A model generated the notes under the pieces. That model had not been told where the DNA came from. It worked only from the letters and a program-made list of their open reading frames with translations, and searched no databases. A program made the translations under genes and the position numbers. DNA of 63,668 bases, filler included, from an uncultured Acidimicrobiia bacterium (GTDB lineage Bacteria; Actinomycetota; Acidimicrobiia; Spongiisociales; JAOTWH01): assembly GCA_964347285.1 (NCBI GenBank). It is 3 parts of 3 records of this genome, joined end to end, with 100 filler letters (N's around TTAATTAATTAA, not from the genome) between each part and the next. Parts side by side here need not be neighbours in the genome. Positions count along the whole stretch, not along the records: positions 1 to 26,867 come from CAYFYE010000026.1; 2 more parts are not named here. One strand, written 5' to 3'. Shown piece by piece: positions 2,556-53,650 of this stretch (position 1 is its first letter; each line of letters begins with the position of its first letter).

Positions 2556-2602
2556 TCTGACAAGAGTGTATCGATGGACGCCGGATATCAGATGGCGACG
2601 CG

Positions 2603-2630
2603 ATGGAGGCGGCCCGAAGGCCGCCTCCAT
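2603..2630. terminator. GC-rich hairpin, probable terminator of the LVIVD/PA gene
   Basis: ATGGAGGCGGCC-CGAA-GGCCGCCTCCAT, perfect 12-bp stem just past the stop at 2653. Confidence 0.6.
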
Positions 2631-2652
2631 GTGTGTTGCCGGGACCGGGTCC

Positions 2653-4599
2653 CTACCTCCTCCGGCCTGCCGCCCCGTCGGAGGCCTGGCCGACTTTGGC
2701 CGAACCGGAGCCGAACTCCTTGAAGATGTCCAGGCCGCCGTTGCGGTCCGAGCCGTAGATCCAGGGCTCACCGGGGATCTTGTACACGCCCCAGTAGTCC
2801 GTGCCCGGCGACGTGAAGCGGGCCGTCTCGACCGGGTTGTACGGGTCGCTGATGTCGAGGATCAGCATCCCGTCGTTGTACCACGAGATGTACGCCTTCA
2901 CCTTGTTGCCAAGGCTCTCGACGATCACGTTGTGTACCGAGTAGGTACCCGCCGGGTCGCAGCTCGGGTCGACCACGGTGGCGCTGCACGTGGTGTCGAA
3001 ACTGGACGCCAGCACAGGATTTGCCGGATCTGAGTAGTCCCAGATCCGTACCTGACCCCAGCCGTTGGGCACTGCCGCGGCGGTCACCGTCTCCCCTGCT
3101 GCGCCTATCACCAGATCCGCCGCACTTGCCGCGTTGGCGATGGCGAGGCCGGTGGAGTGGCCGACGAATACGCCGGGAATGTCCCGTGGGTCGCCGCCCA
3201 TCGTCAGCAGCGCATCGCCGCGAGCTTCGTCGTTGAAGACGACCATGCCGACGTACCCGGCATTGATGGCGTTGGTTGCCTTGTCGTCGAAGCGGCACAC
3301 TCCCCGCTGGATCAGCGCGATCTCCCCATCCCCGGCCGCCGGGGGAACCGGGTCGCCGCCGGTACAGGCCAGGCCGACGTAGGTGGTCGGGCCGCTCATT
3401 TGCCCGCCGGGGAGCGACACCACCGGAGTGGTGAACGAACCTTCTGCCGACGGGTACTCGCCGGCGTTGGGCCCGGTGTCGATGGTGAAGATGGACTCGA
3501 ACGGAGCGAAGTCCTCGTTGGTCTCGACGACGATGCTTCCGTCCTCGCTCATCCAGGCCGCGTGGCTGTTGACCTCCATGTCGCCGTCGGCGCTCAAGTC
3601 GAGGGCAGTGGAGACGTACTGCGGGTTGGTCGGATCGCTCACGTCGAGCAGGATCAGCCCGGCGTCCCAGTTGCTCAAGTACGCGTCGTTGCCGTCGGCG
3701 CTGATGGTGATGTCGTGGAGGAATCGGTTCTGTGAAGCACCGTATCCCGAAATCAGCCAAAGTGCGGCCTCGAACACGCGGTCGACGTCGCTGGTCTCGT
3801 CGCCGACACCGGGATCGAAGACTTCTTCGGCACCCCATGCGCTCGCCATCGTGGGATTCGAGGGATCGGTGATGTCGTAGATCCGGAAGTTGTCGAAGGC
3901 CGATTCGGCCATAGCAGCCACGTAGTCACGGTCGCCGTCGGTGAACAGCCACAGGTTGTGCACCCCGACGTCGGTGATCCCGCCGAAGATGTCATTCGAG
4001 ATGGGGTTCAGCTCATTGATCGGGCCGACGCTGGCCAGGTGAACCGGGTTCTCGGGGTCGTCGACGTTGTAGACCTCGAAGCCACCGGGGCCAACGGCGC
4101 ACGACTCGTTGGAGTGCACCAGGATGTCTCCCGAGTTCATCGCAGCTACTTTGACATCATTGGAGCGGCTACCGGTAGGCGACTGAATGATGCCGACGAA
4201 CTCGACTTTGTTCTTGTTGTGCACATCCCATATCCACACGCCGGCCTCGGGATCACCGCCGCACGGGTTGTTGAAGGTCCCCGTGTAGGCGTACCCGTTG
4301 TGGGCCCAGACGTCTGTGGTGGCACCGGCGACATCTCGCTCGCCGCTACCCGAGACCGCCAGGTTCTTGGTCACCTTGGCGGACGGGCCGCTGCTCACGA
4401 TGCCGTCCGTCTCCAAATCATGTTCCGATAGCGCTGCGCTCAGATCACCTGCCGGGTGCAGGTGCGGTTCCGCTTCCTGCTCGGTCGGGTCGTCGGTGAT
4501 CCCGTCCGGATCGGGATGGGCGGCCACCGGCACCGCCATCGTTGTCAGCAGGGCGAGCGTCGCTAGCGACGCCCACACCGCGCGTATTCGCACTCCCAT
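2653..4599 (-). CDS. Secreted LVIVD-repeat beta-propeller protein with inserted protease-associated (PA) domain
   Basis: Signal peptide; repeated 'LILLDVSDPTNP'/'MLILDISDPYNP' units; PA signature 'IALIQRGVCRFDDKATNAINAGYVGMVVFN'; GGAGAG RBS. Confidence 0.8.
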   Translation of the reverse strand: MGVRIRAVWASLATLALLTTMAVPVAAHPDPDGITDDPTEQEAEPHLHPAGDLSAALSEHDLETDGIVSSGPSAKVTKNLAVSGSGERDVAGATTDVWAHNGYAYTGTFNNPCGGDPEAGVWIWDVHNKNKVEFVGIIQSPTGSRSNDVKVAAMNSGDILVHSNESCAVGPGGFEVYNVDDPENPVHLASVGPINELNPISNDIFGGITDVGVHNLWLFTDGDRDYVAAMAESAFDNFRIYDITDPSNPTMASAWGAEEVFDPGVGDETSDVDRVFEAALWLISGYGASQNRFLHDITISADGNDAYLSNWDAGLILLDVSDPTNPQYVSTALDLSADGDMEVNSHAAWMSEDGSIVVETNEDFAPFESIFTIDTGPNAGEYPSAEGSFTTPVVSLPGGQMSGPTTYVGLACTGGDPVPPAAGDGEIALIQRGVCRFDDKATNAINAGYVGMVVFNDEARGDALLTMGGDPRDIPGVFVGHSTGLAIANAASAADLVIGAAGETVTAAAVPNGWGQVRIWDYSDPANPVLASSFDTTCSATVVDPSCDPAGTYSVHNVIVESLGNKVKAYISWYNDGMLILDISDPYNPVETARFTSPGTDYWGVYKIPGEPWIYGSDRNGGLDIFKEFGSGSAKVGQASDGAAGRRR

Positions 4600-16139: not shown

Positions 16140-16606
16140 GACTTCTCCAGCGCCGGGGCGTTGGGAACCGTATCGAGCCAATCGGTGAGCCGGTCCTTGT
16201 CGTGGAGCATGTCCGAGATGTGCGCCTCGGAGTACTCGTAATCGGGGCTCCAGAACAGAGCGTCGAAGGGGCACACCTCGACGCAGATGCCGCAGTACAT
16301 GCAGAGGGCGTAGTCGATGTCGAAGCGGTCGAGAGTGGCCCGGGTGCGGGGACGGCCACCCGGCTTGGACGGGGGCTGCTCCTCCTTGTGGCCCTCGATG
16401 TAGATGCACCAATCAGGGCATTCCCGGGCGCACAGCATGCACACGGTGCACGCCTCGGGATCGAGGGCGATCACCCCCCGGGCCCGGGGCACCGGAATCT
16501 CCTTCTCGACCGGGTACTGGACGGTCACCGGGCGGGTGAGCAGGGTGCGCAGGGTCACCCACATGCCTTTGGCCAGGCCGATGAGCGGGATCTTGGGACG
16601 GGCCAT
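16136..16606 (-). CDS. nuoI: NADH-quinone oxidoreductase subunit I (2x4Fe-4S)
   Basis: Two CxxCxxCxxxCP motifs; 'VTVQYP'. Confidence 0.95.
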
Positions 16607-17649
16607 CAGAAGATCACCTTGAACATCCCGGTGAGGCCGATGTTCAACAGTGCCAGCGGGATCAGCCACCTCCAGGCCAGCGACTGGAGCTGGTCCTCTC
16701 GCAATCGAGGGAACGTCCAGCGCATCCAGATGAACACGAACACCAGGATCGTGATCTTGGCAACCACCACCAGCGGACCGAGGATGTCCAGGGCGTCGCC
16801 CTCCACCCCCGGCACGTAGTAGCCGCCCAGGAAGAGGGTGGCGGCAATGGCGGCCAAGCTGATCATGCCGGCGTACTCGCCGAGGAAGAAGGCGGCAAAC
16901 CGAAAGCCGGAATATTCGGTGAGGTAGCCCATGACCAGCTCCGACTCGGCGATCGGCATGTCGAAGGGAATGCGGGCCAGCTCGGCCAGGCTGGCGGTCA
17001 CGAAGATGGCGAAGCCGATGATCTGGCCGGTGAGAACGTAGGGGAGGGCGATGCCGGTGCTGCCGATGTGGAACACCGGCTCAGCTTGGGCCTGGACGAT
17101 GCCCTGCAGCGACAGGGTCCCGGCCTGAACGGCGACCCCGACGGCCGCCAGCACGAGCGGGAGCTCATAGGCGATGAGCTGGCCGGCCGCCCGCAGGCCC
17201 CCGATCAGCGAGTACTTGTTGGCCGACGACCACCCCGCCATCAGCACGCCGATGGTGGTGATGGAGGAGATGGCCAGCAGGTAGAAGAGGCCCAGGTCGA
17301 GGTCGCGCACGATGAGGCGCGGGCTGAAGGGGATGATGACGAAGGTGGCCACCGTTCCACCCAGCACCAGGTAAGGAGCTGCCTTGTAGACGAACCGGTC
17401 GGCCTCCTCGGGGACGAGGTCCTCCTTCTGCAGGAACTTGAGGCCGTCGGCCAACGGCTGGGCCCAGCCCCAACGTCCGCCGGCGAAGTAGGGACCAATG
17501 CGGCTCTGCATGTGGGCCGAGATCTTCAGCTCGCCGTAGATGGCTCCGATGGCAGCCGCCGGGATGAAGGCGGCAATCAGGCCGAGCTTGATCACCAGCA
17601 ACACCCAGAAGTTGTCGAAGAACGAAGCACCAAACAAGAAACCGTCCAT
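16606..17649 (-). CDS. nuoH: NADH-quinone oxidoreductase subunit H
   Basis: 'QSRIGP', '[14 protein letters not shown]', '[14 protein letters not shown]', '[12 protein letters not shown]'. Confidence 0.95.
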
Positions 17650-17821
17650 CAACCCACTGCCTCTCGGCGAGGGCTGCATCCGCCCGAGCGTGGTTGGCTC
17701 AAGGCGAGGCCTGCGGCCGAGCCACGCGTGGCCTCCGGCGAACGCGGAAGCAGGCCGCTCCTCGGCCACCACAGGCCAGGCCGTGAGGTGTGAAGAGAAG
17801 CGGCAAAGGGAAGCAGTCCGC

Positions 17822-18325
17822 TCATCGGTCCACGTCTCCCAAGACGAAATCGAGCGAGCCGAGGATGGCGATGATGTCCGGGACCCCGTCCCCTCGTCGC
17901 CGCCCGGCGATGCCGTAGGCCGAGTGGTGTCGGGACGCCGGGCGCCGACGTGCTGCCGCCCCCTCGGACCAGCGGCGTGGCGAGCGCGAGGCGCTCGCCT
18001 GTCTCCAACCACGTTGCCGCGTCGCCAATGGAGCGAAGCTGGTCATCGGTCCACGTCCCAAGACGAAATCGAGCGAGCCGAGGATGGCAATGATGTCCGG
18101 GACCCCGTCTCCTCGTCGCCGCCCGGCGATGCCGTAGGCCGAGTGGTGTCGGGACGCCGGGCGCCGACGTGCTGCCGCCCCCTCGGACCAGCGGCGTGGC
18201 GAGCGCGAGGCGCTCGCCTGTCTCCAACCACGTTGCCGCGTCGCCAATGGAGCGAAGCTGGTCATCGGTCCACGTCTCCCAAGACGAAATCGAGTGAGCC
18301 GAGAATGGCGATGATGTCCGGGACC
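17822..18325 (-). repeat. Tandem array: three copies of the last 62-64 bp of nuoD separated by two copies of a 157-bp structured element
   Basis: nuoD-end copies at 18262-18325 (gene), 18043-18104 (2-bp deletion) and 17822-17885; element copies at 18105-18261 and 17886-18042 differ by one base. Confidence 0.95.
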
Positions 18326-19455
18326 AATGCGCCTTCGAGGATCCAGGGGAGGATCGAGATGTTGGAGAACGAGGCCGAGCGGATCTTCAGCCGATACGGG
18401 CCCCGTCCGCCTTCGGAGACGACGTAGTAGCCCATCTCTCCCTTGGGGTTCTCGGCGCGCACGTAGACCTCACCCTTGGGGACCTTGATGATCTTGGGCA
18501 CCTTGGCCTGGAGGTCCCCCGATGGGATCGTGTCCACCGCCTGGGTGATGATGCGGGCGGCCTGGCGGATCTCCTCCAGGCGCACCTGGTAGCGATCCCA
18601 GCAGTCGCCGTTGTGGCCGGTAGGTATGTCGAACTCGAAGCGGTCGTAGGGGAGGTAGTCGTCCACCTTGCGCAGGTCGAAGGCCACTCCGGAGGCCCGC
18701 AAGTTGGGCCCGGACACCCCGTAGGCCTTGGCGATGTCGACCGGAATCACCCCCACCCCCTTGGTGCGGGCCTGGAAGATCTCGTTCCCCGACACCAAAT
18801 CCTCCAGGTCGTCGCAGACTGCCGCCACCCGCTCCATGGCCCTGCGGGTCTCCTCGAGGAAACCCGCGGGCAGATCCTGAATCACCTTCTTCGTCGCCGC
18901 CCCCGCTCCGGCAGCCGGCTTCACACCTCCGATCCTGTTGAAGTTCGGGTGAAATCGGCCACCGGTGACTCCCTCGATGAGGTCGAGCACTCGTTCCCTC
19001 TCCCGCAGCGCGTGCATCAACGGAGTCGGAGCCCCGATCTCCAGCGGATAGGAGGACATGAAGATGAAGTGGGAGGAGATCCGGGCCATCTCGGTGAGGA
19101 TGAGCCGGATGTACTGAGCCCGCTCGGGAACCTCCAGATCCATGAGCCGCTCCGTGGCCACCATGAACGGGACCTCATTTGCGAAACCGGCCACCCAGTC
19201 GATGCGGTTGATCAGCGCGGTCACCTGGGGATAGGTGCGCACCTCGGCCAGCTTCTCGTAGCCCCGATGCATGTAGCCGATCACCGGTTCGACGTCGCGA
19301 ACCCGCTCGCCGTCGACGCGGGCGACCAGCCGAAGTACGCCGTGGGTCGAGGGATGCTGCGGGCCTATGTTGAGGGTCATCTCGGCCGTCTGTAGCTCGA
19401 CCGAAATGGCCGCCTCGGAGAGGTGCATCATCGCCCGAGGCTCGACCTTGGTCAC
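18262..19455 (-). CDS. nuoD: NADH-quinone oxidoreductase subunit D
   Basis: 'NIGPQHPSTHGVLRL', 'GYMHRGYEK', C-terminal 'GSLDFVLGDVDR'; no NiFe-hydrogenase CxxC motifs. Confidence 0.96.
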   Translation of the reverse strand: MTKVEPRAMMHLSEAAISVELQTAEMTLNIGPQHPSTHGVLRLVARVDGERVRDVEPVIGYMHRGYEKLAEVRTYPQVTALINRIDWVAGFANEVPFMVATERLMDLEVPERAQYIRLILTEMARISSHFIFMSSYPLEIGAPTPLMHALRERERVLDLIEGVTGGRFHPNFNRIGGVKPAAGAGAATKKVIQDLPAGFLEETRRAMERVAAVCDDLEDLVSGNEIFQARTKGVGVIPVDIAKAYGVSGPNLRASGVAFDLRKVDDYLPYDRFEFDIPTGHNGDCWDRYQVRLEEIRQAARIITQAVDTIPSGDLQAKVPKIIKVPKGEVYVRAENPKGEMGYYVVSEGGRGPYRLKIRSASFSNISILPWILEGALVPDIIAILGSLDFVLGDVDR

Positions 19456-20108
19456 TCCTCTCCCTCCTCCTCCGGCGCAGCCGGCTCACCGGCTTCGACG
19501 TTCTCGGTGGCGGGCATGTCCTCCACGTCCACCTTGCCGGGCCACGGCTTCACTTCCCGACTGAGCAATCGGTAGGCCTTGCGCAATGGGTAGCCCTCGA
19601 AGGCGTCGGGCAGATAAAGCTTGATCAGGTTGGGATGGCCCCGGAAGTAGATGCCGAACATCTCGTGTGCCTCCCGCTCGTGCCAGGCGGCCCCGGGAAA
19701 CACCCCCACCAGGCTGTCGATGGTGGGATCGTCCTTGGGAAGGTCGGCCGAGAAGATGACCCGCCGAGCGTCGGACACGGTCGAGAGGCCGCACAGCACC
19801 TCGTACCGCTCTTCGAGCGCATCGGGATCTTCGACCGGTTCGCCGATCACCACCTCCCTCGACCAGTCCGTAGCCGACAGCCAGGAGAAGAAGTCGAGGC
19901 CCATCTCATCCCGGGCCGCGATGATCGCCTCCAGCCAACCTTGGCGGTCCACTTTGATCTTGGCGGTGGCGTGGTCGACTCCGAAGGACGCCGCCCCCAC
20001 GATCCCGGCCACTTCGGCGGCCAGTGCTTCGAAGTCGAGGACGTCGGTCCCGCCGCCGGAGGACCCTCCCTCGTCAACTGGCGGTTGCTCAGACCGGCTG
20101 TCGGTCAC
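19452..20108 (-). CDS. nuoC: NADH-quinone oxidoreductase subunit C
   Basis: '[22 protein letters not shown]...FEGYPLRK'; GTG start inferred. Confidence 0.92.
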
Positions 20109-20586
20109 GCTCGCTCCACTTTTCCTGCACGTCCTCGCCGGCAATCTGCCGCTGGAGGAGCACGATCCCCTCCATGAGTGCCTCGGGACGGGGCGGGCAG
20201 CCCGGCACGTAGACGTCGACGGGAATGATCTGATCGACGCCTTTGGTGACCGAATACGAGTCCCAGTACGGACCGCCGCAATTCGAGCACGACCCCATCG
20301 ATATGACGTACTTGGGGTCGGGCATCTGGTCGTAGAGCCGTCGGATCGCCGGGGCCATCTTGTCGGTGACCGTGCCGGCCACGATCATCAGGTCGGCCTG
20401 GCGAGGGGATGCAGGAAGGGGGATGATCCCGAAGCGCATGAAGTCGTAGCGGGGCCCGGAAGCGGCCATCATCTCGATGGCACAGCAGGCCAGCCCGAAC
20501 TGGAACATCCACAGCGAGTATTTGCGTGACCAGTTCAGGAGCCACGACAACGGCTTGGGAGCCCCGAAGCGCTCGATCACTCCCAC
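20089..20586 (-). CDS. nuoB: NADH-quinone oxidoreductase subunit B
   Basis: 'GLACCAIEM', '[12 protein letters not shown]', 'VISMGSC', 'PGCPPRPE'. Confidence 0.96.
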
Positions 20587-20957
20587 CGCAGCACCCCCTT
20601 GCGGATGGCGTAGACCAGACCCAGAACCAGCACCACGATGAAGATCACCATCTCCACCAGCACGAACCCGCCCATGCCGAGATTGGCGAAGTCCTCCAGG
20701 CGGACGGCCCACGGAAAGATGAATACCGCCTCGACGTCGAAGATCAGGAACAACAGCGCGAAGATGTAGTAGCGGATGTGGCTCTGGCTCCAGCCCCCAC
20801 CGACCGGATCGATGCCGCACTCATAGGTGCGCTTCTTGCCGGAACTGGGCTTGTCGGGCCGCAGCAATGTCGCGATCCCGAGGGCCACCGCCACCAGCAC
20901 GAGGCCCAGGCCGATGAACGCCGCCACGGTGATGTAGTCCTCGAAGTAGCCGCCCAC
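20577..20957 (-). CDS. nuoA: NADH-quinone oxidoreductase subunit A
   Basis: 'YECGIDP', '[24 protein letters not shown]'; GAGGAG RBS. Confidence 0.96.
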
Positions 20958-21126
20958 CAGGTCTCCTCAGCGCGGTGTAGCCACCAAAGCGGGGCGGAGT
21001 TTAGGCGGCGGCCGGTAGCGGAGGAAGCCGGGTACGCCGGGAGCGCCCAAGCCGAAAACCCCGGGAATCGAAGCGGCGCCGACGGGGTTGTGGCAGCGGC
21101 CACCGAGTGAAGGGAACGACCGACCG

Positions 21127-21501
21127 ATGGCGACCGTGGAGCTCACCAAGGACAACTTCGAGGAGACGATCCTCAACAACGAAACCGTATTCGTGGATTT
21201 CTGGGCAGAGTGGTGCGGGCCGTGCCGCATGTTCGCTCCTACCTTCGAAGCGGCCTCGGAGGACCACGACAACATCGTGTTCGGCAAGGTGAACACCGAG
21301 ACGGAACAGGTGCTGGCCGGCTACTTCGGCATCCGCTCCATCCCCACCCTCATGGTGTTCAAAGAGCAAATCGCCATCTTCTCCCAACCCGGTGCACTGC
21401 CTCCGACCATCCTCGACGACCTCATCGGCAAGGTGAAGGAGGTCGACATGGACGACGTGCGCCGCCAGATCGCAGAACAGGACGAGGCCAAGACCGGCTA
21501 G
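21127..21501 (+). CDS. trxA: Thioredoxin
   Basis: 'VDFWAEWCGPC', 'IRSIPTL'; divergent from nuoA. Confidence 0.93.
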   Translation: MATVELTKDNFEETILNNETVFVDFWAEWCGPCRMFAPTFEAASEDHDNIVFGKVNTETEQVLAGYFGIRSIPTLMVFKEQIAIFSQPGALPPTILDDLIGKVKEVDMDDVRRQIAEQDEAKTG

Positions 21502-21628
21502 CGGCCCGCTCCCACCTCGGGGCGGCCGGCCCAACCGACACCATCGGCATCGGCCCACCTCACCCCGGCCCACCCCTGTCGCGACTGCGTCCGGCCGGGG
21601 CGAGTTACGGGCCGAGTAGCCTCCGGCC

Positions 21629-22729
21629 ATGGCCGGCCCTCGGATCGTCCCTCCCGACTATGAGGGAGGATCGCTGGTCAACCTGGTCACCGAGCTGGAA
21701 GGGCGGCTGACCGGTTCGCCGGCCTTCCCAACGCTCCATCCCCGAATTGCGGCCGAGATACCCGAAGCGGCTACCTTCCTACTGGTCCTCTTCGACGGCT
21801 TGGGGTCGACCCAGCTCGATCATCCCGACGCCCAACCGCTGCGGACCGCCTTCCGGACCAGCATCGACGCTCCCTTTCCCACGACGACCACGGTGAGCCT
21901 GGCCTCCCTGGCCACGGGGCTCCCCCCGTCCCAGCACGGGCTCATCGCCTACGAGCTGTACCTCCCCGACATCGAGCGGGTGGTCAACTCGATTCAATGG
22001 ACCACCCTGTGGGGAGACCCGATCCCCTACGACTACGACGGCTTCTTGCCTTCCCCCAACCTCTGGGAGCGGCTCAAAGCGGGGGGCGTCGAGCCGATCA
22101 CCATCCAGCCCGGTCACTTCGAGGGAACGCCGCTGTCGAAGGTGCTCTATCGGGGATGCCGCTACGAGCCGGTGTACAGCGTCGTCGAGCTGATCGACGC
22201 CGCCGTCGACCTGGCTGCCCGGCCGGGGCGGCTGGTGGAGGTCTACGTCCCCAACATCGACGTGGCCGCCCACACCCACGGCCAATCCTCGCAGCAGTAC
22301 GCCCAAGCCATGGCGTTTGCGTCCGGACTCTGGGAGGCGATCAGGGGGGGACTCCCCGACGGCGCCGTCCTGGTGGGCACCTCCGACCACGGACACGTCG
22401 ACATTCCGATCGAAGGCCAAGCCGTCGTGCCTAAGCGAGCCGAGAAGGAGCTGACCCTGTACGGGGATACCCGAGTGATGTTCGTCAAAGGAGACGGTGC
22501 GCCCCTCGCCGATGCGCTCCCGGCCCGGTGGCTGGCTCTCGGCGAGTTCTCTGATTGGCTCGGCCCCGGCCCCCACCATCCCGCCCTGGCGCAACGGGCC
22601 CCGGACGGAGCCCTCCTGGCGGACGACGGACACCGCCTCATGCACCGATTCACCAACCAACGCCTCATCGGATCACATGGCGGCCTGACCGACCACGAAC
22701 GCCTGGTGCCCCTGCTGGTCGCCGGTTAA
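21629..22729 (+). CDS. Alkaline phosphatase superfamily protein (nucleotide pyrophosphatase/phosphodiesterase type)
   Basis: 'LFDGLG', 'FPTTT', 'DVAAHTHG', 'SDHGH', 'GSHGG'. Confidence 0.88.
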   Translation: MAGPRIVPPDYEGGSLVNLVTELEGRLTGSPAFPTLHPRIAAEIPEAATFLLVLFDGLGSTQLDHPDAQPLRTAFRTSIDAPFPTTTTVSLASLATGLPPSQHGLIAYELYLPDIERVVNSIQWTTLWGDPIPYDYDGFLPSPNLWERLKAGGVEPITIQPGHFEGTPLSKVLYRGCRYEPVYSVVELIDAAVDLAARPGRLVEVYVPNIDVAAHTHGQSSQQYAQAMAFASGLWEAIRGGLPDGAVLVGTSDHGHVDIPIEGQAVVPKRAEKELTLYGDTRVMFVKGDGAPLADALPARWLALGEFSDWLGPGPHHPALAQRAPDGALLADDGHRLMHRFTNQRLIGSHGGLTDHERLVPLLVAG

Positions 22730-22897
22730 GGGGAGGCGAGGCCGATCGACCGGGCGCTCGAGTGGGGCCATGGACCCGATTCATCCGAAAGAGGTGCTCA
22801 CCACCATCATCGTGCGCTTGGGGGCATCGTCTCACTCTCGCCCCGGATCGCGGCGGGGACCTCCAGGACGCCCGGCCCCGGCCCGTAGCATTGTGCG

Positions 22898-23887
22898 GTG
22901 ATCAGAATCGCAACGGTCCTCGCCGTGGTGGCCTCCGTGCTCGGCGCCTGTGCCGGCGGCAGCGGCGCCGACTTGACCGTGTACAGCGGCCGTAGCGAGG
23001 AACTGGTCGGCCCCCTCATCACCCGCTTCGAGGAGTCGTCCGGTCTCGACGTCGAGGTCCGCTACGCCGGCAGCACCGAACTGGCCGCCACGCTGCTCGA
23101 GGAGGGCGACAACACCCCGGCCGACGTGTTCTTCGCCCAGGATCCGGCCTCGCTGGGCGTAGTAGCGCTCGAACAGCTCTTCCGTCCACTCCCGGCCGCA
23201 TTGCTGGGGCAGGTGCCGGCCCGGTTCTCCGACCGAAACGGCCGCTGGGTCGGTGTGTCCGGACGGGCCCGGGTGCTGGTGCACGGTGCCGACGCCTTCG
23301 ACGACCCCCCGGCCACGGTCGATGACCTCACCGCTCCGGAATGGGAAGGGCGCCTCGCCATCGCACCTCAGAACGGCTCCTTCCTGGCGTTCGTGGCCGC
23401 CAAGATCCTCCTCGACGGCGAGCCGGCCACCCGAGACTGGCTGGAAGGCATCGCCGCCAACGACCCGGTGCGCTTCGACGGCAACAGCGCCATCGTCGCC
23501 GCCGTCGACGGAGGCGAGGTCGATGCCGGGCTGGTCAACCACTACTACTTGCTGCGCCTGATCGACGAGCAGGGCTCCAGCCGGGCCTCCAATCTGTTCT
23601 TCGACGAGGGAGGAGCCGGGGCCCTGGTGATGCCGGCCGGAGCCGGCATCCTGGCCGCCGCCGACGACGTCGAGGCGGCGATCGACTTCGTCAGCTTTCT
23701 GCTGTCGGAGGAGGCCCAGTCCTACTTCGCCGCCGAGACGTTCGAGTATCCGCTCCTGGCCCCCGTCGCCGCCGACCCGGCTCTTCCGCCCCTCGAGACG
23801 ATCGGTGCCCCCGACCTGGACCTCTCCCGACTGGCGGAAGCGCTGGATGCCGCCACCGATCTGGTCGCCGAGACGGGACTGTTGTGA
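22898..23887 (+). CDS. Fe(III) ABC transporter substrate-binding lipoprotein (FbpA/AfuA family)
   Basis: Lipobox LGAC; 'LTVYSGR', 'TPADVF', 'LVNHYY' (iron-binding Tyr pair), 'TFEYP'. Confidence 0.9.
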   Translation: MIRIATVLAVVASVLGACAGGSGADLTVYSGRSEELVGPLITRFEESSGLDVEVRYAGSTELAATLLEEGDNTPADVFFAQDPASLGVVALEQLFRPLPAALLGQVPARFSDRNGRWVGVSGRARVLVHGADAFDDPPATVDDLTAPEWEGRLAIAPQNGSFLAFVAAKILLDGEPATRDWLEGIAANDPVRFDGNSAIVAAVDGGEVDAGLVNHYYLLRLIDEQGSSRASNLFFDEGGAGALVMPAGAGILAAADDVEAAIDFVSFLLSEEAQSYFAAETFEYPLLAPVAADPALPPLETIGAPDLDLSRLAEALDAATDLVAETGLL

Positions 23888-25515
23888 TCGAGGAGCCCAT
23901 TCAGGTCCTCGAGGCCCCGGTGGAGCCGCCGGCCGCCCCACCCGTCCCCACCCGCCGGCCCCGGGCTCCCCTGTTCCTGTGGGTGGCCGCCGTGGCCGTG
24001 CTGGTCCCCGTGGTGGCACCGCTGATCGTCCTCGTCGGCCGGGTTATCGGGGCAGGCAGCAGCGCCTGGGAGGTGCTCTTCTCCGCACGGACCCTCGAGC
24101 TCGTCCTGCAGACGCTGGCGCTCACGGCCGCCGTGACGGCCACGTCGCTGGCCGTGGGCCTGACCACCGCCTGGCTCACCGTCCGCACCGACCTCCCCGC
24201 CCGACGGCTGTGGTCGGTGCTGGTGTCGCTGCCCCTCGTCATCCCCTCCTACGTGCTGGCGCTGGCGGTGCTGTCGGCGTTCGGCGCCAACGGAGTCATC
24301 ACCGACGCGCTGGGGCCCCTCGGCGTCGACCGCCTGCCCTCGGTCGGGGGAGCGTTCGGAGCCTGGCTGGTGCTCACGCTGGCCACCTATCCGTTCGTCC
24401 ACCTCATCAGCTCGGCAGCGTTGCGACGCATCGATCCCGGTCTCGAGGAGGCGGCCCGGGGCCTGGGAGCCTCGCCGGGGCGCACCTTCCGCACGGTCGT
24501 CGTCCCCCAGGTTCGCTCCTCGCTGGCCGCCAGCGGTCTGCTGGTGGCGCTGTACACGATCTCGGACTTCGGGGCGGTCTCGCTGATGCGCTTCGATGCG
24601 CTCACCCGGGTGATCTACGCCCAGTACCAGGGCCGGCTCGACCGGACCCCGGCGGCCGTGCTGGCCACCGTCCTCATCGTGATCGTCGCGGTGATCCTGG
24701 TGGCCGAGCAACGCATGCGAGGCCGGGGAAGGGCCTACACGGCCCGGGGCTCGCGCCCTCCGCGCCGGTTCCCCTTGAGCGGGTGGGCCCGGCGAGCCGG
24801 CCTGGCGTTTCTGGGCCTTCTGGTGGCCGTGGCCCTCGCCCTGCCGCTGGCAGTTCTCGGCGGCTGGCTGGCCCGAGGGATCGATCGTGGCGCCCCTCTC
24901 GACGTGGCCTGGCGAGCTGCGGCCGGCTCGCTCTGGGTGTCGGCGGCCGCAGCGCTGGTGGCGGTGGCGGCCGCCGTGCCCGTGGCCGTGCTGGTGGTGC
25001 GCTATCGCTCCAAGGCCACCATCGCCGTGGACCGGGCCGTCTTCTCAGTCTTTGCCCTGCCCCACATCGCGGTGGCCCTGGCCATGGTGTTCCTGGCCGT
25101 CAACTACCTCGGACCCCTCTACCAGGGCTTCCTGGTCCTGATCGTCACCTACGTCGCCCTCTTCCTCCCTCAGGCCAGCGGCGCGGCCCGGGGCGCCCTC
25201 GAGCAGGTCAACCCCAACTTGGAAGAGGCGGCCCGCGGGCTCGGCAAAGGCCCGCTCTCGGCCCTTGTTCGGGTCACCATCCCCCTGATCTCGAGGGCCC
25301 TGCTGGCCGGCGGAGCGCTGGTGTTCCTCACCACCATGAAGGAGCTCCCGGCTACCCTCCTGCTACGGCCCACCGGCTTCGATACCCTGGCAGTGGAGAT
25401 CTGGTCGGCGACGTCCGAGGGATTCTTCGCCAGGGCCGCGGCCCCGGCCCTTCTCTTGCTCGCGGTATCGGCCCTTCCGATGTACCTTCTCGTTGCACGA
25501 AGCTATGAGTCCTGA
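23884..25515 (+). CDS. Fe(III) ABC transporter permease (FbpB family)
   Basis: Two 'LEEAARGLG' EAA loops; 'MKELPATLLLRP'; GTG overlaps previous stop. Confidence 0.9.
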   Translation: MIEEPIQVLEAPVEPPAAPPVPTRRPRAPLFLWVAAVAVLVPVVAPLIVLVGRVIGAGSSAWEVLFSARTLELVLQTLALTAAVTATSLAVGLTTAWLTVRTDLPARRLWSVLVSLPLVIPSYVLALAVLSAFGANGVITDALGPLGVDRLPSVGGAFGAWLVLTLATYPFVHLISSAALRRIDPGLEEAARGLGASPGRTFRTVVVPQVRSSLAASGLLVALYTISDFGAVSLMRFDALTRVIYAQYQGRLDRTPAAVLATVLIVIVAVILVAEQRMRGRGRAYTARGSRPPRRFPLSGWARRAGLAFLGLLVAVALALPLAVLGGWLARGIDRGAPLDVAWRAAAGSLWVSAAAALVAVAAAVPVAVLVVRYRSKATIAVDRAVFSVFALPHIAVALAMVFLAVNYLGPLYQGFLVLIVTYVALFLPQASGAARGALEQVNPNLEEAARGLGKGPLSALVRVTIPLISRALLAGGALVFLTTMKELPATLLLRPTGFDTLAVEIWSATSEGFFARAAAPALLLLAVSALPMYLLVARSYES

Positions 25516-26539
25516 TCCAGTCATTGCCTGCCGCAGCCTCGCCAAGCGCTTCGGCGACGCCGTCGCGCTCGACGGCTTCGACCTCGACGTTTCCGCCGGG
25601 AGCATTCTCGGCCTGCTCGGCCCCTCCGGCTGTGGCAAGACGACCGCACTACGGGTGATTGCCGGTTTCGAGGTCCCCGACACCGGCACGGTGGCGATCG
25701 GCGGCCGTACGGTCGTCGGCGACGGGAGCTGGACGCCTCCCGAGCGGCGCCGGGTGGGAATGGTTTTCCAGGATTACGCCCTGTTCCCCAACATGAGCGT
25801 GGCCGCCAACGTGGCCTTCGGCCTGCCCAAGGGCGCCGATCGGCAGAGGCGGGTCACCGAGATCCTCGGCTTGGTGGGCCTCCGCCGGCTCGCCGGGCGC
25901 ATGCCCCACGAACTGTCCGGGGGCGAGCAACAGCGGGTCGCTTTGGCCCGGGCGCTGGCACCCGAGCCCGAGGTCGTCCTGCTGGACGAGCCCTTCTCCA
26001 ACCTCGATGCCCCCCAGCGGGATCGGGTGCGGCGAGAGGTGCGCACGATCCTGGTCGAAGCCAGAGCCACCGCGGTCTTCGTCACCCACGACCAGGAAGA
26101 AGCGTTGGCGATGAGCGACGTCGTCGCGGTGATGCGGGAAGGGCGAATCATCCAGGTGGCCAGCCCCGCCGACGTGTATCACCGTCCCGTCGACTGCTGG
26201 GTGGCCCGCTTCCTGGGCGAGGGCGAGCTGGTGCCCGGCCGGGCCGCCGGGGCCACCGTCGACACCGTGCTGGGCAGCTTCAAACTGGCCGAGCCCGCCG
26301 ACGGGAAGGTAGAGGTCCTCATCCGCCCCGAGGCGGTCCGTCTGCTCCCCGACGAGCACGGGCTGACCCGGGTGGTCGACCGGGAGTTCTACGGCCACGA
26401 CCAACTGGTGACGCTGGAACTGCCCGACGGCCGCCGCCTACTGTCCCGCACACCGGCCGGTCCGGTGTTCTCCCCCGGCGACCGGGTCCGCATAGAAGTC
26501 GACGAAGTGATGGCATTCCCGGCGCACGAACACGCCTAG
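25505..26539 (+). CDS. Fe(III) ABC transporter ATP-binding protein (FbpC family)
   Basis: Walker A GPSGCGKT, LSGGEQQ, LLDEP, C-terminal TOBE-like region. Confidence 0.92.
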   Translation: MSPDPVIACRSLAKRFGDAVALDGFDLDVSAGSILGLLGPSGCGKTTALRVIAGFEVPDTGTVAIGGRTVVGDGSWTPPERRRVGMVFQDYALFPNMSVAANVAFGLPKGADRQRRVTEILGLVGLRRLAGRMPHELSGGEQQRVALARALAPEPEVVLLDEPFSNLDAPQRDRVRREVRTILVEARATAVFVTHDQEEALAMSDVVAVMREGRIIQVASPADVYHRPVDCWVARFLGEGELVPGRAAGATVDTVLGSFKLAEPADGKVEVLIRPEAVRLLPDEHGLTRVVDREFYGHDQLVTLELPDGRRLLSRTPAGPVFSPGDRVRIEVDEVMAFPAHEHA

Positions 26540-26730
26540 ACCCGATCGAGTGCTTCGGCGCCTCGTTGGTTGGTGCTGGGCGGGCCCCCTGGGCCCGCCT
26601 CGACTCCGGTCCGCCGGGAGCGGCAGCACGTCGCTTGCTCGGCGGACCGACAGCGAGGCCCGGCGGTGATCGCCGAGCAACGACAAGCAACCGGGCGTCT
26701 CCCGCCCACAGCACGCCTAGACCGATCGAG
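26518..26730 (+). mobile_element. Diverged copy (core 26551-26700) of the structured element found after nuoD, flanked by an imperfect duplication of the ATPase gene end
   Basis: CACGCCTAGACCCGATCGAG (26531-26550) vs CACGCCTAGACCGATCGAG (26712-26730); shares GCGGCAGCACGTCG and two covarying hairpins with 17886-18042; mobility is inferred. Confidence 0.7.
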
Positions 26731-26774
26731 GGCGCCATCGTGGCATCGAGCACAACCTCAGGTGCCCGGACCGA

Positions 26775-26867
26775 TCAGCCGGACTGGCTGATCTCGAACA
26801 GGTGCCCGTCCGGGTCTCGGAAGAAGCAGCGGATCTCGGCGCCCCAGTCGTAGGGCGGGGTGAGGAA
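26775..26867 (-). CDS. VOC/glyoxalase family protein, C-terminal fragment (truncated by contig end)
   Basis: Reads 'LTPPYDWGAEIRCFFRDPDGHLFEISQSG*'. Confidence 0.8.
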   Translation of the reverse strand, partial: FLTPPYDWGAEIRCFFRDPDGHLFEISQSG

Positions 26868-26967
26868 NNNNNNNNNNNNNNNNNNNNNNNNNNNNNNNNN
26901 NNNNNNNNNNNTTAATTAATTAANNNNNNNNNNNNNNNNNNNNNNNNNNNNNNNNNNNNNNNNNNNN
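26868..26967. other. Artificial contig-joining linker
   Basis: N-run with TTAATTAATTAA at 26912-26923 (stops in all six frames). Confidence 0.95.
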
Positions 26968-27256
26968 CACTATCGCGCGACCGCAGGTCACGTCACCCAC
27001 CGGTGTGCCAGGGTTCACGACTGTTCCAAGAGGAGCTCGAGTAGTGAGCGCAGAGGTGCCTGATAGGGCTGTAGGGGTGGTGCGGGATGTAGTTCCGTAA
27101 CGTTGCAGGAGGCCTGGTGGGTGTGGCTCTCGAGGTCCCTGCCGCCGTTGGGTTGGCTTTCGAACGAGGTGCTGTACCTGCCGGGATCTCTTGCTGGCGA
27201 GCAAGCTGCTATTCCCGATCTACAGGCTGCCGGATTGTCAGCCAGTGCAGGCTTCG

Positions 27257-34888: not shown

Positions 34889-35947
34889 TCAGCCTGCCGG
34901 GGCGGCGCAGGCGTTCGGCGAGTAGATGCCCCCTACCTTGCCGTCCGGATCGGCCGAGGTCACCGGGCCCCACAGGAGAAGAGTGTTGTCCTGGTTACGC
35001 AACTCGAACACCAGGCCGCTGTCGTCATCCACTACGTAGTTGATCACGAAGTCGTCGGCATAGATGGATTCAAGGGTCTCAACGGTGTCGCCGGCCCGGA
35101 GCCCGCTGACCGTGCGCAGTTCGGCTGAAAGCGAATCGAGATCGCCGAAGGCAAGATCGAGCCGGTAACCGGCAAAGCTCGGCAAGCCCTCGGGGTCGGT
35201 GATCACGACGGCCAGCGGACCCCAGCGGACCACTCGCACGGTATCTCCCGGACAAGCACCGTAAACCCCGGATGAGATGAAGGTGCCACTGTCCTCGTTC
35301 GGTTGACCGAAGGTCGCCGTCAAACGACCCAGGATCTCGTTTCCGTCCGCCCCCATCAGCAGAGGGCCGATGCCGCTGCTGGCCATGCGGAGGTCGTCGA
35401 GCGGGATGGGATCTCCTGTTGCCTCGATGGGAGCCGGGGTCGTGGCAGTCACTGCCGGGGTGGTGCTCGTGGTGGGCAAAGCCAGCGTCGTGGCCGTCGC
35501 CGGCGCCTCGGTCGTCGTGGTGGTGGTTTCTGCCGCCGGAGGGACCGCTTGTTCGGTGCCCCCGTCGGGCTCTCGACGGAACAAGAGGAAGCCGACGATG
35601 CTCACGACTGCCAACGTGACTCCGACCAGCAATCCGACGAGGAACGGCGGGAGACTCGATCCGCGCCGGGTCGGCGGAGGCGGTTCGCCCTCATCGAGCG
35701 GCCACTCGCCGGGATCTGCGGGAAGGTCGTCGAGCTGCTCGTAGGCCGACGGCTTGGCGGCCTCGCCTCGCGAAGGCGGTGGCCCGGGGCGGCGGACCAC
35801 TACCTCGGGCGGCTCCTCGGGCGGCTCNNNNNNNNNNNNNNNNNNNNNNNNNNNNNNNNNNNNNNNNNNNNNNNNNNNNNNNNNNNNNNNNNNNNNNNNN
35901 NNNNNNNNNNNNNNNNNNNNNNNNNNNGTGTCGTCGTCGTTGCTCAA
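34889..35947 (-). CDS. Membrane-anchored protein, Thr/Pro linker plus ~170-aa extracellular domain (spans a gap; start uncertain)
   Basis: Single TM helix, TTTTT linker; C-terminal domain paralogous to that of 37204-38268. Confidence 0.75.
   Translation of the reverse strand: MSNDDDXXXXXXXXXXXXXXXXXXXXXXXXXXXXXXXXXXEPPEEPPEVVVRRPGPPPSRGEAAKPSAYEQLDDLPADPGEWPLDEGEPPPPTRRGSSLPPFLVGLLVGVTLAVVSIVGFLLFRREPDGGTEQAVPPAAETTTTTTEAPATATTLALPTTSTTPAVTATTPAPIEATGDPIPLDDLRMASSGIGPLLMGADGNEILGRLTATFGQPNEDSGTFISSGVYGACPGDTVRVVRWGPLAVVITDPEGLPSFAGYRLDLAFGDLDSLSAELRTVSGLRAGDTVETLESIYADDFVINYVVDDDSGLVFELRNQDNTLLLWGPVTSADPDGKVGGIYSPNACAAPAG
35828..35927. other. 100-N scaffold gap inside a CDS, next to an EPPEEPPE repeat
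   Basis: N-run without linker. Confidence 0.9.
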
Positions 35948-53550: not shown

Positions 53551-53650
53551 NNNNNNNNNNNNNNNNNNNNNNNNNNNNNNNNNNNNNNNNNNNNTTAATT
53601 AATTAANNNNNNNNNNNNNNNNNNNNNNNNNNNNNNNNNNNNNNNNNNNN
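53551..53650. other. Artificial contig-joining linker
   Basis: N-run with TTAATTAATTAA. Confidence 0.95.

What the first reader, a model, noticed from the sequence alone, without database searches (positions are those of the whole stretch)
17886..26730. A dispersed ~150-157 bp structured element with covarying hairpins that sits at gene 3' ends
Seen: the spacer after nuoD (reverse strand of 17886-18042 and 18105-18261) and the spacer after the Fe ABC ATPase gene (26551-26700, + strand) align in the sense direction of their upstream genes with conserved spacing. The shared layout is GCTTCG near the 5' end; GGTTGG-N5; hairpin 1; N8-GGTCCG; an identical GCGGCAGCACGTCG; hairpin 2. Hairpin 1 is GGCGAGCGC-ctc-GCGCTCGCC vs GGCGGGCCC-cct-GGGCCCGCC (two compensatory pairs). 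Hairpin 2 is CGCCCGGCG-N26-CGCCGGGCG vs TGCTCGGCG-N26-CGCCGAGCA (two more), closed by GTCG/CGAC, and both 26-nt loops contain CCGACA, GGCC and CGG and end in AT. Every copy is followed by a duplicate of the host gene end. Inference: selection acts on a folded RNA or ssDNA, so this may be a non-autonomous mobile element (or structured ncRNA) that targets stop-codon regions and is mobilised in trans. I do not recognise it as a named family. The nearest known analogues are mycobacterial MIRUs, REP/REPINs and IS110 non-coding ends; no mobilising enzyme is visible in this window.
Basis: partly seen in the sequence, partly recalled or inferred. Interest (0 to 1): 0.88.

Follow-up and report, generated by a model that had tools for sequence, protein, structure and literature searches.

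The report
Structured intergenic repeat family in Acidimicrobiia
The look-alike stretches after nuoD and the ABC-transporter gene are real copies of an undescribed, roughly 140-175-base two-hairpin repeat that has spread between housekeeping genes of one family of uncultured Acidimicrobiia. It resembles the REP, MIRU and MITE repeats of other bacteria, but no enzyme that moves it was found.

Summary
The window has three good copies, two after nuoD and one after the ABC ATPase gene, each followed by a copy of the host gene end. It also has a degenerate inverted copy at 17685-17814.

A covariance model finds 8 copies in this genome and 68, 29, 6 and 5 in four related genomes. It finds none in 150 other genomes sampled across the class. 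Both hairpins are strongly supported: 92% of cells pair, and 19 of 22 pairs show double changes. Mismatch types indicate that one particular strand folds.

- Copies lie in either orientation to neighbouring genes.
- Only 4 of 80 copies carry host-derived flanking duplications. Three of these are the window's own copies.
- There are no terminal inverted repeats and no fixed short target duplication.

Evidence for mobility:
- Copies cluster by genome even at shared intergenic sites.
- At 3 of 7 shared sites the two copies point in opposite directions.
- One insertion has an exact empty site in a sister genome.
- The unit number at nuoD differs between assemblies.

No HUH, reverse transcriptase, TnpB, IS110 or IS630 gene tracks with it, and it matches nothing in Rfam.

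Verdict: a new lineage-specific repeat family of a familiar kind, and the way it moves is unknown.

The parts
18262..19455 (-). nuoD (NADH dehydrogenase 49-kDa subunit). Its last 63 nt (18324-18262, copy A1) are the sequence duplicated downstream.
   Evidence: ORF. Pfam Complex1_49kDa, E 1e-84 (protein 6).
18104..18261 (-). Element copy 1. It has a 5' leader CCAGCTTCGCTCCATTGGCGAC and a core at 18236-18105.
   Evidence: Model R1 147 bits; R2 119.4 bits.
18043..18103 (-). A2: a 61-nt copy of the nuoD end, including ATGA, with a 2-nt deletion.
   Evidence: A contig from a second sample carries this copy without the deletion.
17885..18042 (-). Element copy 2, 99% identical to copy 1.
   Evidence: R2 117 bits.
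17822..17884 (-). A3: a 63-nt copy of the nuoD end, ending in ATGA.
17685..17814 (+). Degenerate copy of the element in the opposite orientation, between A3 and nuoH.
   Evidence: R2 46.1 bits, E 1.3e-6. Sequence.
16606..17649 (-). nuoH. Its ATG is at 17649-17647 and overlaps the TGA of a 58-codon ORF.
   Evidence: Pfam NADHdh, E 4e-101 (protein 5).
17822..18265 (-). 147-codon ORF that starts at the ATGA overlapping the nuoD stop and ends at the third ATGA. Together with ORF 17825-17649 it forms an unbroken start/stop-overlap relay from nuoD to nuoH.
   Evidence: That ribosomes actually use this relay is inference.
25493..26539 (+). ABC transporter ATPase gene (ABC_tran + TOBE_2).
   Evidence: Pfam, protein 7.
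26517..26550 (+). Left direct repeat at the ABC site: the last 23 nt of the gene (stop codon included) plus 11 nt after it.
   Evidence: score 17.5.
26551..26699 (+). Element copy at the ABC site; core at 26561-26694.
   Evidence: R1 129.1 bits; R2 100.3 bits.
26700..26730 (+). Right direct repeat at the ABC site: a degenerate, frame-shifted copy of 26517-26550.

Best explanation
The element is a lineage-specific, non-coding, non-autonomous repeat of about 140 nt, or about 175 nt with its optional 5' extension. Its layout is (TAG)ACGCGGAGAAACCCG..ACGC, GGyACGkGGTTGG, a 9-bp hairpin, GTAGG..GCGGCAGC, a 13-bp hairpin with a 26-30-nt loop, then CAATGTGA.

Proposed working:
- One particular strand folds, as single-stranded DNA or as RNA. 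The invariant unpaired motifs are the likely handle for a factor acting in trans that has not been identified.
- Copies have been added or replaced within each genome since related genomes diverged. They land in a limited set of short intergenic spacers next to stop codons, tRNA 3' ends and operon junctions, in either orientation.
- Once in place, the hairpins promote local slippage or unequal exchange. This produces partial duplications and tandem arrays.

At the window's two sites the insertion is flanked by long, variable direct repeats of the target (63 and about 34 nt). A related G001 copy has a 15-25-nt repeat. I read these as target duplications made at insertion. They were kept because they preserve the upstream gene's end and, at nuoD, the ATGA start/stop overlap that couples nuoD to nuoH. 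Exchange between the repeats then changes the unit number.

Shown: the family, the fold, the strand asymmetry, clustering by genome, one empty site, and unit-number variation.
Inferred: the single-stranded intermediate, the trans factor, how the long duplications arose, and the translational relay.
For: Copy numbers and range:
- 8, 68, 29, 6 and 5 matches in five genomes of family f1.
- 0 of 150 other genomes sampled across the class.

Structure:
- 92.4% of cells paired, 19 of 22 pairs with double changes, covariation 0.499 against 0.124 in shuffles.
- The same hairpins come from RNAalifold.

Strand asymmetry:
- G:T 38 against A:C 14; G-A/A-G 77 against C-T/T-C 2.

Mobility:
- On a tree of 84 full-length copies, the G001 (45) versus G006 (24) label needs 1 change. 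Shuffled labels need 20.2 on average and at least 15.
- At 5-6 of 7 shared intergenic sites a copy resembles its own genome's paralogs (median 0.70-0.77) more than its positional partner (0.54-0.64).
- At 3 of those 7 sites (dnaX, ilvB|ilvN, prfB|ftsE) the two copies point in opposite directions.
- G006:C39 has 5 nt between two convergent stop codons where G001:C20 has about 165 nt holding the element.

Local instability:
- Arrays with spacings of 125, 137, 173-182 and 219-221 nt, and repeated 3' pieces.
- One unit in assembly L178 against two in the window. A variant middle repeat occurs in a second sample.

Ancestral nuoD|nuoH state:
- An ATGA overlap in G004 and in 20 of 67 measurable metagenome relatives.
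- The overlap relay in the window.
Against: - No mobilising enzyme was found. Y1/HUH, RVT_1, TnpB and Y2 each gave 0 of 8 genomes, and the Y2 control rang nowhere, so that search is uninformative.
- IS110 and IS630-type genes do not track copy number, and none has the element beside it. These genomes are 70-90% complete, so absence is weak evidence.
- There are no terminal inverted repeats and no fixed short target duplication, and no pair-specific flank repeats in 60 lone copies. The insertion chemistry is therefore open.
- Clustering by genome could come from gene conversion rather than new insertions.
- Long duplications occur at only 4 of 80 copies. They could come from later rearrangement rather than from insertion.
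- No RNA data exist.
- Gene contexts rest on a crude GC3-based ORF caller.
Confidence: 0.55

Rival explanations
1. It is a cis-acting RNA module in messenger RNAs, such as a 3'-end stabiliser, an RNase processing site, a U-tract-less terminator or an operon decoupler. Selection on RNA function keeps it, and it spreads only by recombination.
For: - Strand-asymmetric G-U and G-A tolerance and conserved unpaired motifs.
- Ends lie close to stop codons: 21 of 41 within -8..+8 nt at the 3' side.
- Open-frame relay across the nuoD-nuoH insert.
Against: - Orientation relative to flanking transcription is random: 21 sense against 19 antisense between co-directional genes, and 10 copies between divergent genes.
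- No hairpin-plus-T-run terminator in 17400-18500.
- Copies cluster by genome, not by locus.
- Opposite orientations at the same site in sister genomes.
Confidence: 0.17
2. It is a family of multicopy small-RNA genes, each transcribed on its own.
For: - Defined length, a conserved fold on one strand, and invariant single-stranded motifs that could be seed regions.
- Independence from neighbouring gene orientation.
Against: - Conservation stops at the element's borders, with no shared promoter-like flank.
- No sigma-70-like promoter or terminator around the window copies.
- Copies sit inside tight operon junctions and abut stop codons.
- Many partial and tandem fragments.
Confidence: 0.1
3. It is a double-stranded DNA binding-site array for a chromosomal protein (nucleoid protein, gyrase or the like). 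The hairpins would be incidental palindromes.
For: - Invariant sequence blocks (GGTTGG, GCGGCAGC).
- Extragenic location and use in either orientation.
Against: - Stems vary freely in sequence while keeping complementarity.
- Mismatches are purine-purine on one strand only, 77 against 2. A duplex site would not show that bias.
Confidence: 0.06
4. The repeated nuoD ends and the tandem units are assembly artefacts of a metagenome-assembled genome.
For: - The window is a draft made of joined contigs (N runs and linkers).
- Another assembly shows one unit, not two.
Against: - The arrangement nuoD end, element, nuoD end occurs in an independent assembly (L178).
- A contig from a second sample bridges element, nuoD-end copy and element with its own sequence variants.
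- The three nuoD-end copies differ from one another.
Confidence: 0.03

Closest known systems
REP / BIME / REPIN elements with their RAYT (Y1 HUH) transposases in Proteobacteria
   Same: - Extragenic and high in copy number, in either orientation, often at gene 3' ends.
- Act as folded single strands with a conserved unpaired motif.
- Sequence classes are specific to the host lineage. [quoted passage not shown]
- The abstract of bioRxiv 10.1101/2024.10.14.618302 describes REPINs as mobile within a genome but inherited vertically. That fits the clustering by genome found here.
   Different: - This element is 140-175 nt with two unlike hairpins, not a 20-40-nt palindrome or an inverted pair of them.
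- No Y1/RAYT gene was found in 8 genomes.
- Long flanking target duplications at some copies.
MIRUs (mycobacterial interspersed repetitive units)
   Same: - Actinobacterial, intergenic within operons, forms tandem arrays that vary in unit number.
- At nuoD the unit carries an ORF joined to its neighbours by ATGA (-4) overlaps. [quoted passage not shown]
   Different: - The coupling architecture is seen at the nuoD site, not across the family. Half the copies in co-directional settings are antisense, and many lie between convergent genes.
- Longer units with covarying hairpins.
- No sequence comparison with MIRUs was made, because no MIRU sequence was on hand.
Bacterial MITEs and ERIC/IRU, Correia, BOX and RUP repeats (recalled from general knowledge)
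   Same: - 100-200-nt non-coding intergenic repeats that fold into hairpins.
- Modular and partial copies (as in BOX); non-autonomous.
   Different: - No terminal inverted repeats and no fixed short target duplication.
- The fold is two local hairpins, not one long end-to-end hairpin.
- No cognate transposase found.
Other structured intergenic repeat families noted by this scan in Acidimicrobiia (e1-2379457, e1-2170343, e1-1492203, e1-1160104)
   Same: The same kind of object in the same class: lineage-specific, hairpin-forming, intergenic repeats with no described family.
   Different: - A sequence look-up found no look-alike of this element among earlier windows.
- Those notes describe palindromic or heptamer-arm elements, not this two-hairpin layout.
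- I did not check their claims.

Membership tests
REP/REPIN-RAYT | Short (about 20-40 nt) imperfect palindrome, often in inverted pairs (REPIN) | tested here: not met
   The unit is 133 model positions with two different hairpins separated by conserved single-stranded blocks.
REP/REPIN-RAYT | A Y1 HUH (RAYT) gene in the genome, flanked by the repeats | tested here: not met
   PF01797 in 0 of 8 genomes of the family; the control rang in 6 of 14. The genomes are 70-90% complete, so this is weak evidence.
REP/REPIN-RAYT | Extragenic, many copies, host-specific sequence class | tested here: met
MIRU | Unit ORF overlapping the stop and start codons of the flanking operon genes (-4 coupling) | tested here: inconclusive
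   Met at the window's nuoD-nuoH site and readable at G006's nuoD site (by eye). It cannot hold for antisense copies or copies between convergent genes.
MIRU | Sequence membership in the mycobacterial MIRU classes | not tested
MITE (DDE-transposon derivative) | Terminal inverted repeats | tested here: not met
   5' end against reverse-complemented 3' end: mean local score 5.87, against 5.78 for shuffles, in 60 copies.
MITE (DDE-transposon derivative) | Fixed-length short target-site duplication | tested here: not met
   The best case is 6 of 60 copies at k=3, out of 1,120 boundary combinations.
IS200/IS605-derived PATE, or omega-RNA of TnpB | TnpA (Y1) or TnpB gene in the genome; similar subterminal hairpins at both ends | tested here: not met
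   PF01797 0 of 8 and PF07282 0 of 8. The two hairpins differ in form.
IS110/IS1111 non-coding end (bridge RNA) | Lies next to a DEDD transposase gene | tested here: not met
   PF01548 is strong only in G004, which has no copies, and absent in G001, which has 68. No element lies in 6 IS110-type loci. 0 of 129 neighbouring ORFs are transposases.
Any Rfam 15 family | Match to a curated covariance model | tested here: not met
   0 matches at E<=1 in window 17000-27000. 0 matches at E<=0.1 in six loci holding copies.
Intrinsic terminator | GC-rich hairpin followed by a T run | tested here: not met
   0 terminator-like sites in 17400-18500. The consensus 3' tail is CAATGTGA.

The most novel reading that the evidence does not exclude
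The element may be a REPIN-like vertical replicator served by a mobiliser of a kind not yet linked to such repeats; none of the HUH, RT, TnpB, IS110 or IS630-type searches turned up a gene that tracks it. It would insert as a folded single strand beside stop codons and tRNA ends. In one subfamily it would join through microhomology or staggered breaks, leaving target duplications of 15 to more than 60 nt. Those duplications would rebuild overlapping gene ends and ATGA coupling signals.
Probability: 0.15. Interest if true: 0.75.

Novelty: new variant of a known kind. Interest (0 to 1): 0.45.

Why it matters
Acidimicrobiia are abundant and uncultured, and their non-coding DNA is essentially unannotated. 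This family gives a calibrated model for masking or annotating dozens of intergenic sites per genome.

It also shows that REP-like dynamics occur without any recognisable RAYT. Copies cluster by genome and the same sites are used again. That sharpens the question of what moves such repeats in Actinomycetota.

The nuoD|nuoH junction is a natural series of states: an ATGA overlap, single inserts, and arrays with relay ORFs. It could be used to test how translational coupling in an essential operon survives insertions.

The long, variable flanking duplications, one of them with a matching empty site, are unusual for bacterial repeats and may point to a new insertion route.

Tried and rejected
- Rfam: no match.
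- First pattern scan of 101 relatives, GGTTGG..CGGCAGCAC: mostly chance hits, with counts similar to the reversed-pattern control. It served only as a lead.
- Pattern scan of genome contigs, GGTTGG..GCGGCAGCACGTCG: more than 119 hits in unrelated GC-rich genomes. 0 of the 80 fetched loci match model R2.
- General long target duplication: rejected.
- A flanking GAACCCG or ACGCGG repeat that I thought I saw by eye: not supported. AACCCG occurs on both sides in 3 of 60 copies.
- Short fixed target duplication and terminal inverted repeats: rejected.
- A longer parent element with a gene between the two halves: 10 partial hits examined were internally deleted copies with no such gene.
- A recurrent unknown neighbouring gene: none in an all-against-all comparison of 196 flanking ORFs.
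- guaA-cheA site in G006: this is not an empty site but a remnant copy.
- Empty site for the ABC copy: not found, because downstream gene order differs in relatives.
- Sequencing runs: no RNA holder listed. Only contigs could be laid, and they gave no joints and no empty-site form.
- A pseudoknot between GGTTGG and a CAACC in the loop of hairpin 2: considered by eye only. It does not hold for the window copies and was not tested formally.
- Mobiliser searches: PF01797, PF00078, PF07282, PF04986, PF01548 and PF13358.
- Literature: 0 papers hold both 'Acidimicrobiia' and 'intergenic repeat'. The searches gave comparators only. No supplements were read.
- One search failed on a wrong frame and was corrected through.
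Full report
**1. What is in the window**

Places 1-26867 of the window are one contig (C26) of a 2.63-Mb, 187-contig, 67% G+C draft genome. Earlier notes of this scan call it an uncultured Acidimicrobiia.

The nuoD site, on the minus strand:
- nuoD ends at TGA 18264-18262. The ORF is; Pfam gives Complex1_49kDa.
- Then come element copy 1 (18261-18104), a 61-nt copy of the nuoD end (18103-18043), element copy 2 (18042-17885) and a 63-nt copy of the nuoD end (17884-17822).
- The two units are 219 and 221 nt long.
- A fourth, degenerate copy lies in the opposite orientation at 17685-17814.
- nuoH starts at 17649.

The ABC site, on the plus strand:
- The ABC ATPase gene ends at TAG 26537-26539.
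- The element (26551-26699) lies between imperfect direct repeats 26517-26550 and 26700-26730.

**2. Is it more than chance?**

Yes.
- BLAST and a first covariance model (R1, built from the three copies) found further copies in this genome. One is a 125-nt tandem array on contig C63, whose hairpin-2 stem is a third, fully compensated version. Another is on C72.
- R1 also found copies in relatives.
- A second model (R2, 13 sequences) gave 8, 68, 29, 6 and 5 matches at E<=0.01 in G000, G001, G006, G005 and G003. Only 150 candidates per genome were scored.
- R2 gave no match at E<=1e-4 in 150 other genomes drawn across the class, under strict filters. Two genomes of another family (G046, G028) have single copies.
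- On 88 aligned copies from 70 loci, 92.4% of pair cells are standard pairs. The figure is 67.6% in shuffles and 27-45% when partners are slid.
- 19 of 22 pairs show double changes. The covariation score is 0.499 against 0.124, and 0 of 500 shuffles reach it. That alignment was fitted to the model.
- RNAalifold predicts the same two hairpins on its own: 17 of 19 pairs have double changes.

**3. Anatomy of the family**

- The consensus core runs gACGC, GGyACGkGGTTGG, N5, G, hairpin 1 (9 bp, CTCG-type loop), CcCGAC, GTAGG..., GCGGCAGC, hairpin 2 (4 + 9 bp with a purine-rich internal loop and a 26-30-nt loop), CAATGTGA.
- Near-identical pairs at unrelated G001 loci show that many copies also carry a 5' extension, (G)TAGACGCGGARAAMCCCG..., and end at ..GTGAAAC.
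- The window copies belong to a rarer subfamily with a GTCG/CGAC closure and a different tail. Their closest relative is G001:C20.
- Mismatches in the stems are strongly one-sided: G:T 38 against A:C 14, and G-A/A-G 77 against C-T/T-C 2. So the strand as given is the one that folds.
- There is no Rfam match. There is no promoter-like or terminator-like site around the nuoD copies.

**4. Context**

A crude ORF caller based on GC3 was used. Stop positions are exact; start positions are not.

| Setting of the copy | Copies |
|---|---|
| Between co-directional genes, sense | 21 |
| Between co-directional genes, antisense | 19 |
| Between convergent genes | 17 |
| Between divergent genes | 10 |
| One side missing | 21 |

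- There is therefore no preferred orientation to transcription.
- The ends do hug gene ends. The 3' end lies within -8..+8 nt of a convergent gene's stop in 21 of 41 cases. In 9 of these the stop is the TCA inside the element's last six bases.
- Three copies abut tRNA 3' ends.
- An upstream sense stop lies within 50 nt in 19 of 41 cases.
- I scanned 129 of the 196 ORFs found within 1.5 kb of copies, taking the nearest ones. All that matched Pfam were ordinary housekeeping genes, and none was a transposase, integrase or reverse transcriptase.
- No unknown neighbour recurs.

**5. The 'duplicate of the host gene end'**

- I compared 80 nt upstream with 80 nt downstream of 80 copies. 15 scored above the 95th percentile of mismatched controls.
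- Most of these 15 are explained by neighbouring tandem copies.
- Host-derived repeats are seen only at the two nuoD copies, the ABC copy and G001:C20.
- In 60 lone copies, true flank pairs are no more alike than swapped pairs: 8.10 against 8.12 matches in the best 11-mer.
- There is no fixed short duplication and no terminal inverted repeat.
- So the feature is real here but is not a family trait. It belongs to the window's subfamily.

**6. Evidence that the element moves or is replaced**

(a) Clustering by genome. On a tree of 84 full-length copies, the labels G001 (45) and G006 (24) need one change. Shuffled labels need 20.2 on average and at least 15 in 200 shuffles.

(b) Shared sites. Seven intergenic sites are occupied in both genomes, which belong to one genus with flanks 79-86% identical.
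- The positional partners are 0.54-0.68 identical.
- At 5-6 of the 7 sites they are less alike than the copy is to most paralogs of its own genome, where medians are 0.70-0.77.

(c) Orientation. At three of the seven sites (upstream of dnaX, ilvB|ilvN, prfB|ftsE) the two copies point in opposite directions relative to the same genes. They cannot be simple orthologs.

(d) An empty site.
- In G006:C39 an acyl-CoA-synthetase-like gene and a convergent hydrolase gene are separated by TGA-GGCGG-CTA.
- In G001:C20 about 165 nt lie at this point, holding the element.
- The last 15-25 nt of the insert repeat coding sequence that lies 9 nt before the upstream stop.

(e) The nuoD|nuoH junction.
- It is an ATGA overlap in G004 and in 20 of 67 measurable metagenome relatives. 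31 of the 67 carry 30 to 400 extra bases.
- Only two of the 80 loci hold this element: L178, which is 99% identical to the window, and L179.
- G006 has a copy at this junction without any duplication.
- G007 and G002 have a shorter insert that shares the leader CCAGCTTGCCTCCATTG and a GCCGCAGCAC block with the window's copies. It is flanked by CGATGAT on both sides (by eye).

**7. Local instability**

- Arrays and partial repeats are common. Spacings of 125, 137, 173, 176-182 and 219-221 nt occur, and there are repeated 22-25-nt 3' ends.
- Assembly L178 has nuoD end, element, nuoD end, which is one unit where the window has two.
- A contig from a second sample of the same study bridges element, nuoD-end copy and element, and lacks the 2-nt deletion.
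- So the base structure is real and the unit number varies, or is collapsed by assemblers.
- n elements with n+1 host repeats is what exchange between the flanking repeats would give.

**8. The relay of reading frames**

- The ATG overlapping the nuoD stop (ATGA, 18265-18262) opens a 147-codon frame through both units. It ends at the third ATGA (17825-17822).
- The ATG there opens a 58-codon frame ending at TGA 17651-17649. That TGA overlaps the nuoH ATG at 17649-17647.
- With one 221-nt unit, or with two undeleted units, the chain also closes.
- This mirrors what a review passage says of MIRUs (PMC12548453). It gives a reason why a duplication carrying ATGA would be kept.
- Open frames are common at 67% G+C, so actual use by ribosomes is inference.

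**9. What moves it?**

Unknown. Six transposase or polymerase families were searched in the 8 genomes of the family.

| Family searched | Result |
|---|---|
| Y1/HUH (PF01797) | 0 of 8 |
| RVT_1 | 0 of 8 |
| TnpB zinc ribbon | 0 of 8 |
| Y2 | 0 of 8, but the control rang nowhere |
| IS110 DEDD | 5 in G004 (no copies), none in G001 (68 copies) |
| IS630-type DDE | One each in G004 and G001 |

- No element lies beside any of those transposase genes.
- The genomes are 70-90% complete and repeats assemble poorly, so absence is weak evidence.
- No claim here rests on the unpublished genome G011.

**10. Reading**

- The best fit is a REP-, MIRU- or MITE-like non-autonomous repeat. It acts through one folded strand, is renewed within each genome, and is locally unstable.
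- The long duplications in the window are most simply target duplications made at insertion and preserved by selection on gene ends.
- Later rearrangement is not excluded, and the chemistry is open.
- One unexplained detail: the left edge of the duplicated host segment is TCCCGG at nuoD and at the ABC gene, and its complement CCGGGA at G001:C20. I noticed this after the fact.
- The rivals (cis-RNA module, small-RNA gene, duplex binding site, artefact) fit less well, for the reasons given under each.

**11. Novelty**

- No Rfam family matches, and no paper was found pairing Acidimicrobiia with 'intergenic repeat'.
- The scan's own notes list other, different repeat families in this class, and no look-alike of this one.
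- It is a new family whose architecture and lack of a known mobiliser set it apart from the named families, but it is of a familiar general kind.

Noticed in passing
L121, L088, L099 flanks; G006:C8 18060-18300 (L166); G007:C120 nuoD-nuoH spacer (L129): A second, different hairpin repeat (CCGAACATCCGC..CCCCCC..GGGGGGAG type) recurs in intergenic spacers of G001, G006 and G007, sometimes beside copies of the element studied here.
   Followed up: no
L178-L257 (80 metagenome loci); G004:C20, G005:C13, G007:C120: The nuoD|nuoH junction is an ATGA overlap in 20 of 67 measurable relatives. It is expanded by 30-400 nt of assorted inserts in 31 of 67, so it is a hot spot for intergenic insertions.
   Followed up: partly
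window 26868-26967, 35828-35927, 53551-53650: The window is several contigs joined by N runs. Two of the joins carry a TTAATTAATTAA linker, so features cannot be read across these points.
   Followed up: no
window 16606-19455: nuoD is followed directly by nuoH, with no nuoE, nuoF or nuoG between them, here and in all relatives examined. This is an 11-subunit-type gene order, or the EFG genes lie elsewhere.
   Followed up: no
L077 (G001:C72), L165 (G006:C180), L161 (G003:C41): guaA-cheA spacer: A conserved CTYAAGC..N..GTCGATAT motif lies upstream of cheA in several genera. It looks like a flagellar sigma-factor promoter (consensus recalled, not tested).
   Followed up: no
window 18324-18262 versus 17884-17822: The functional nuoD end differs from the downstream copy by two synonymous GC-to-AT third-position changes (ATT and TCA against ATC and TCG), which is unusual for this GC-rich genome.
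   Followed up: no
L145 (G001:C7:391-481) and L148 (G006:C272:173-263): These two loci, from genomes otherwise about 80-86% identical, are almost identical over the element and its flanks. This may be cross-binning or a very recent transfer. I left the pair out of the shared-site counts.
   Followed up: no
L039 (G000:C72) 1644-3134, minus strand: Two adjacent ORFs both match the aldehyde dehydrogenase family (profile positions 20-397 and 398-461). This suggests a frameshift or sequencing error in the gene next to the C72 copy.
   Followed up: no
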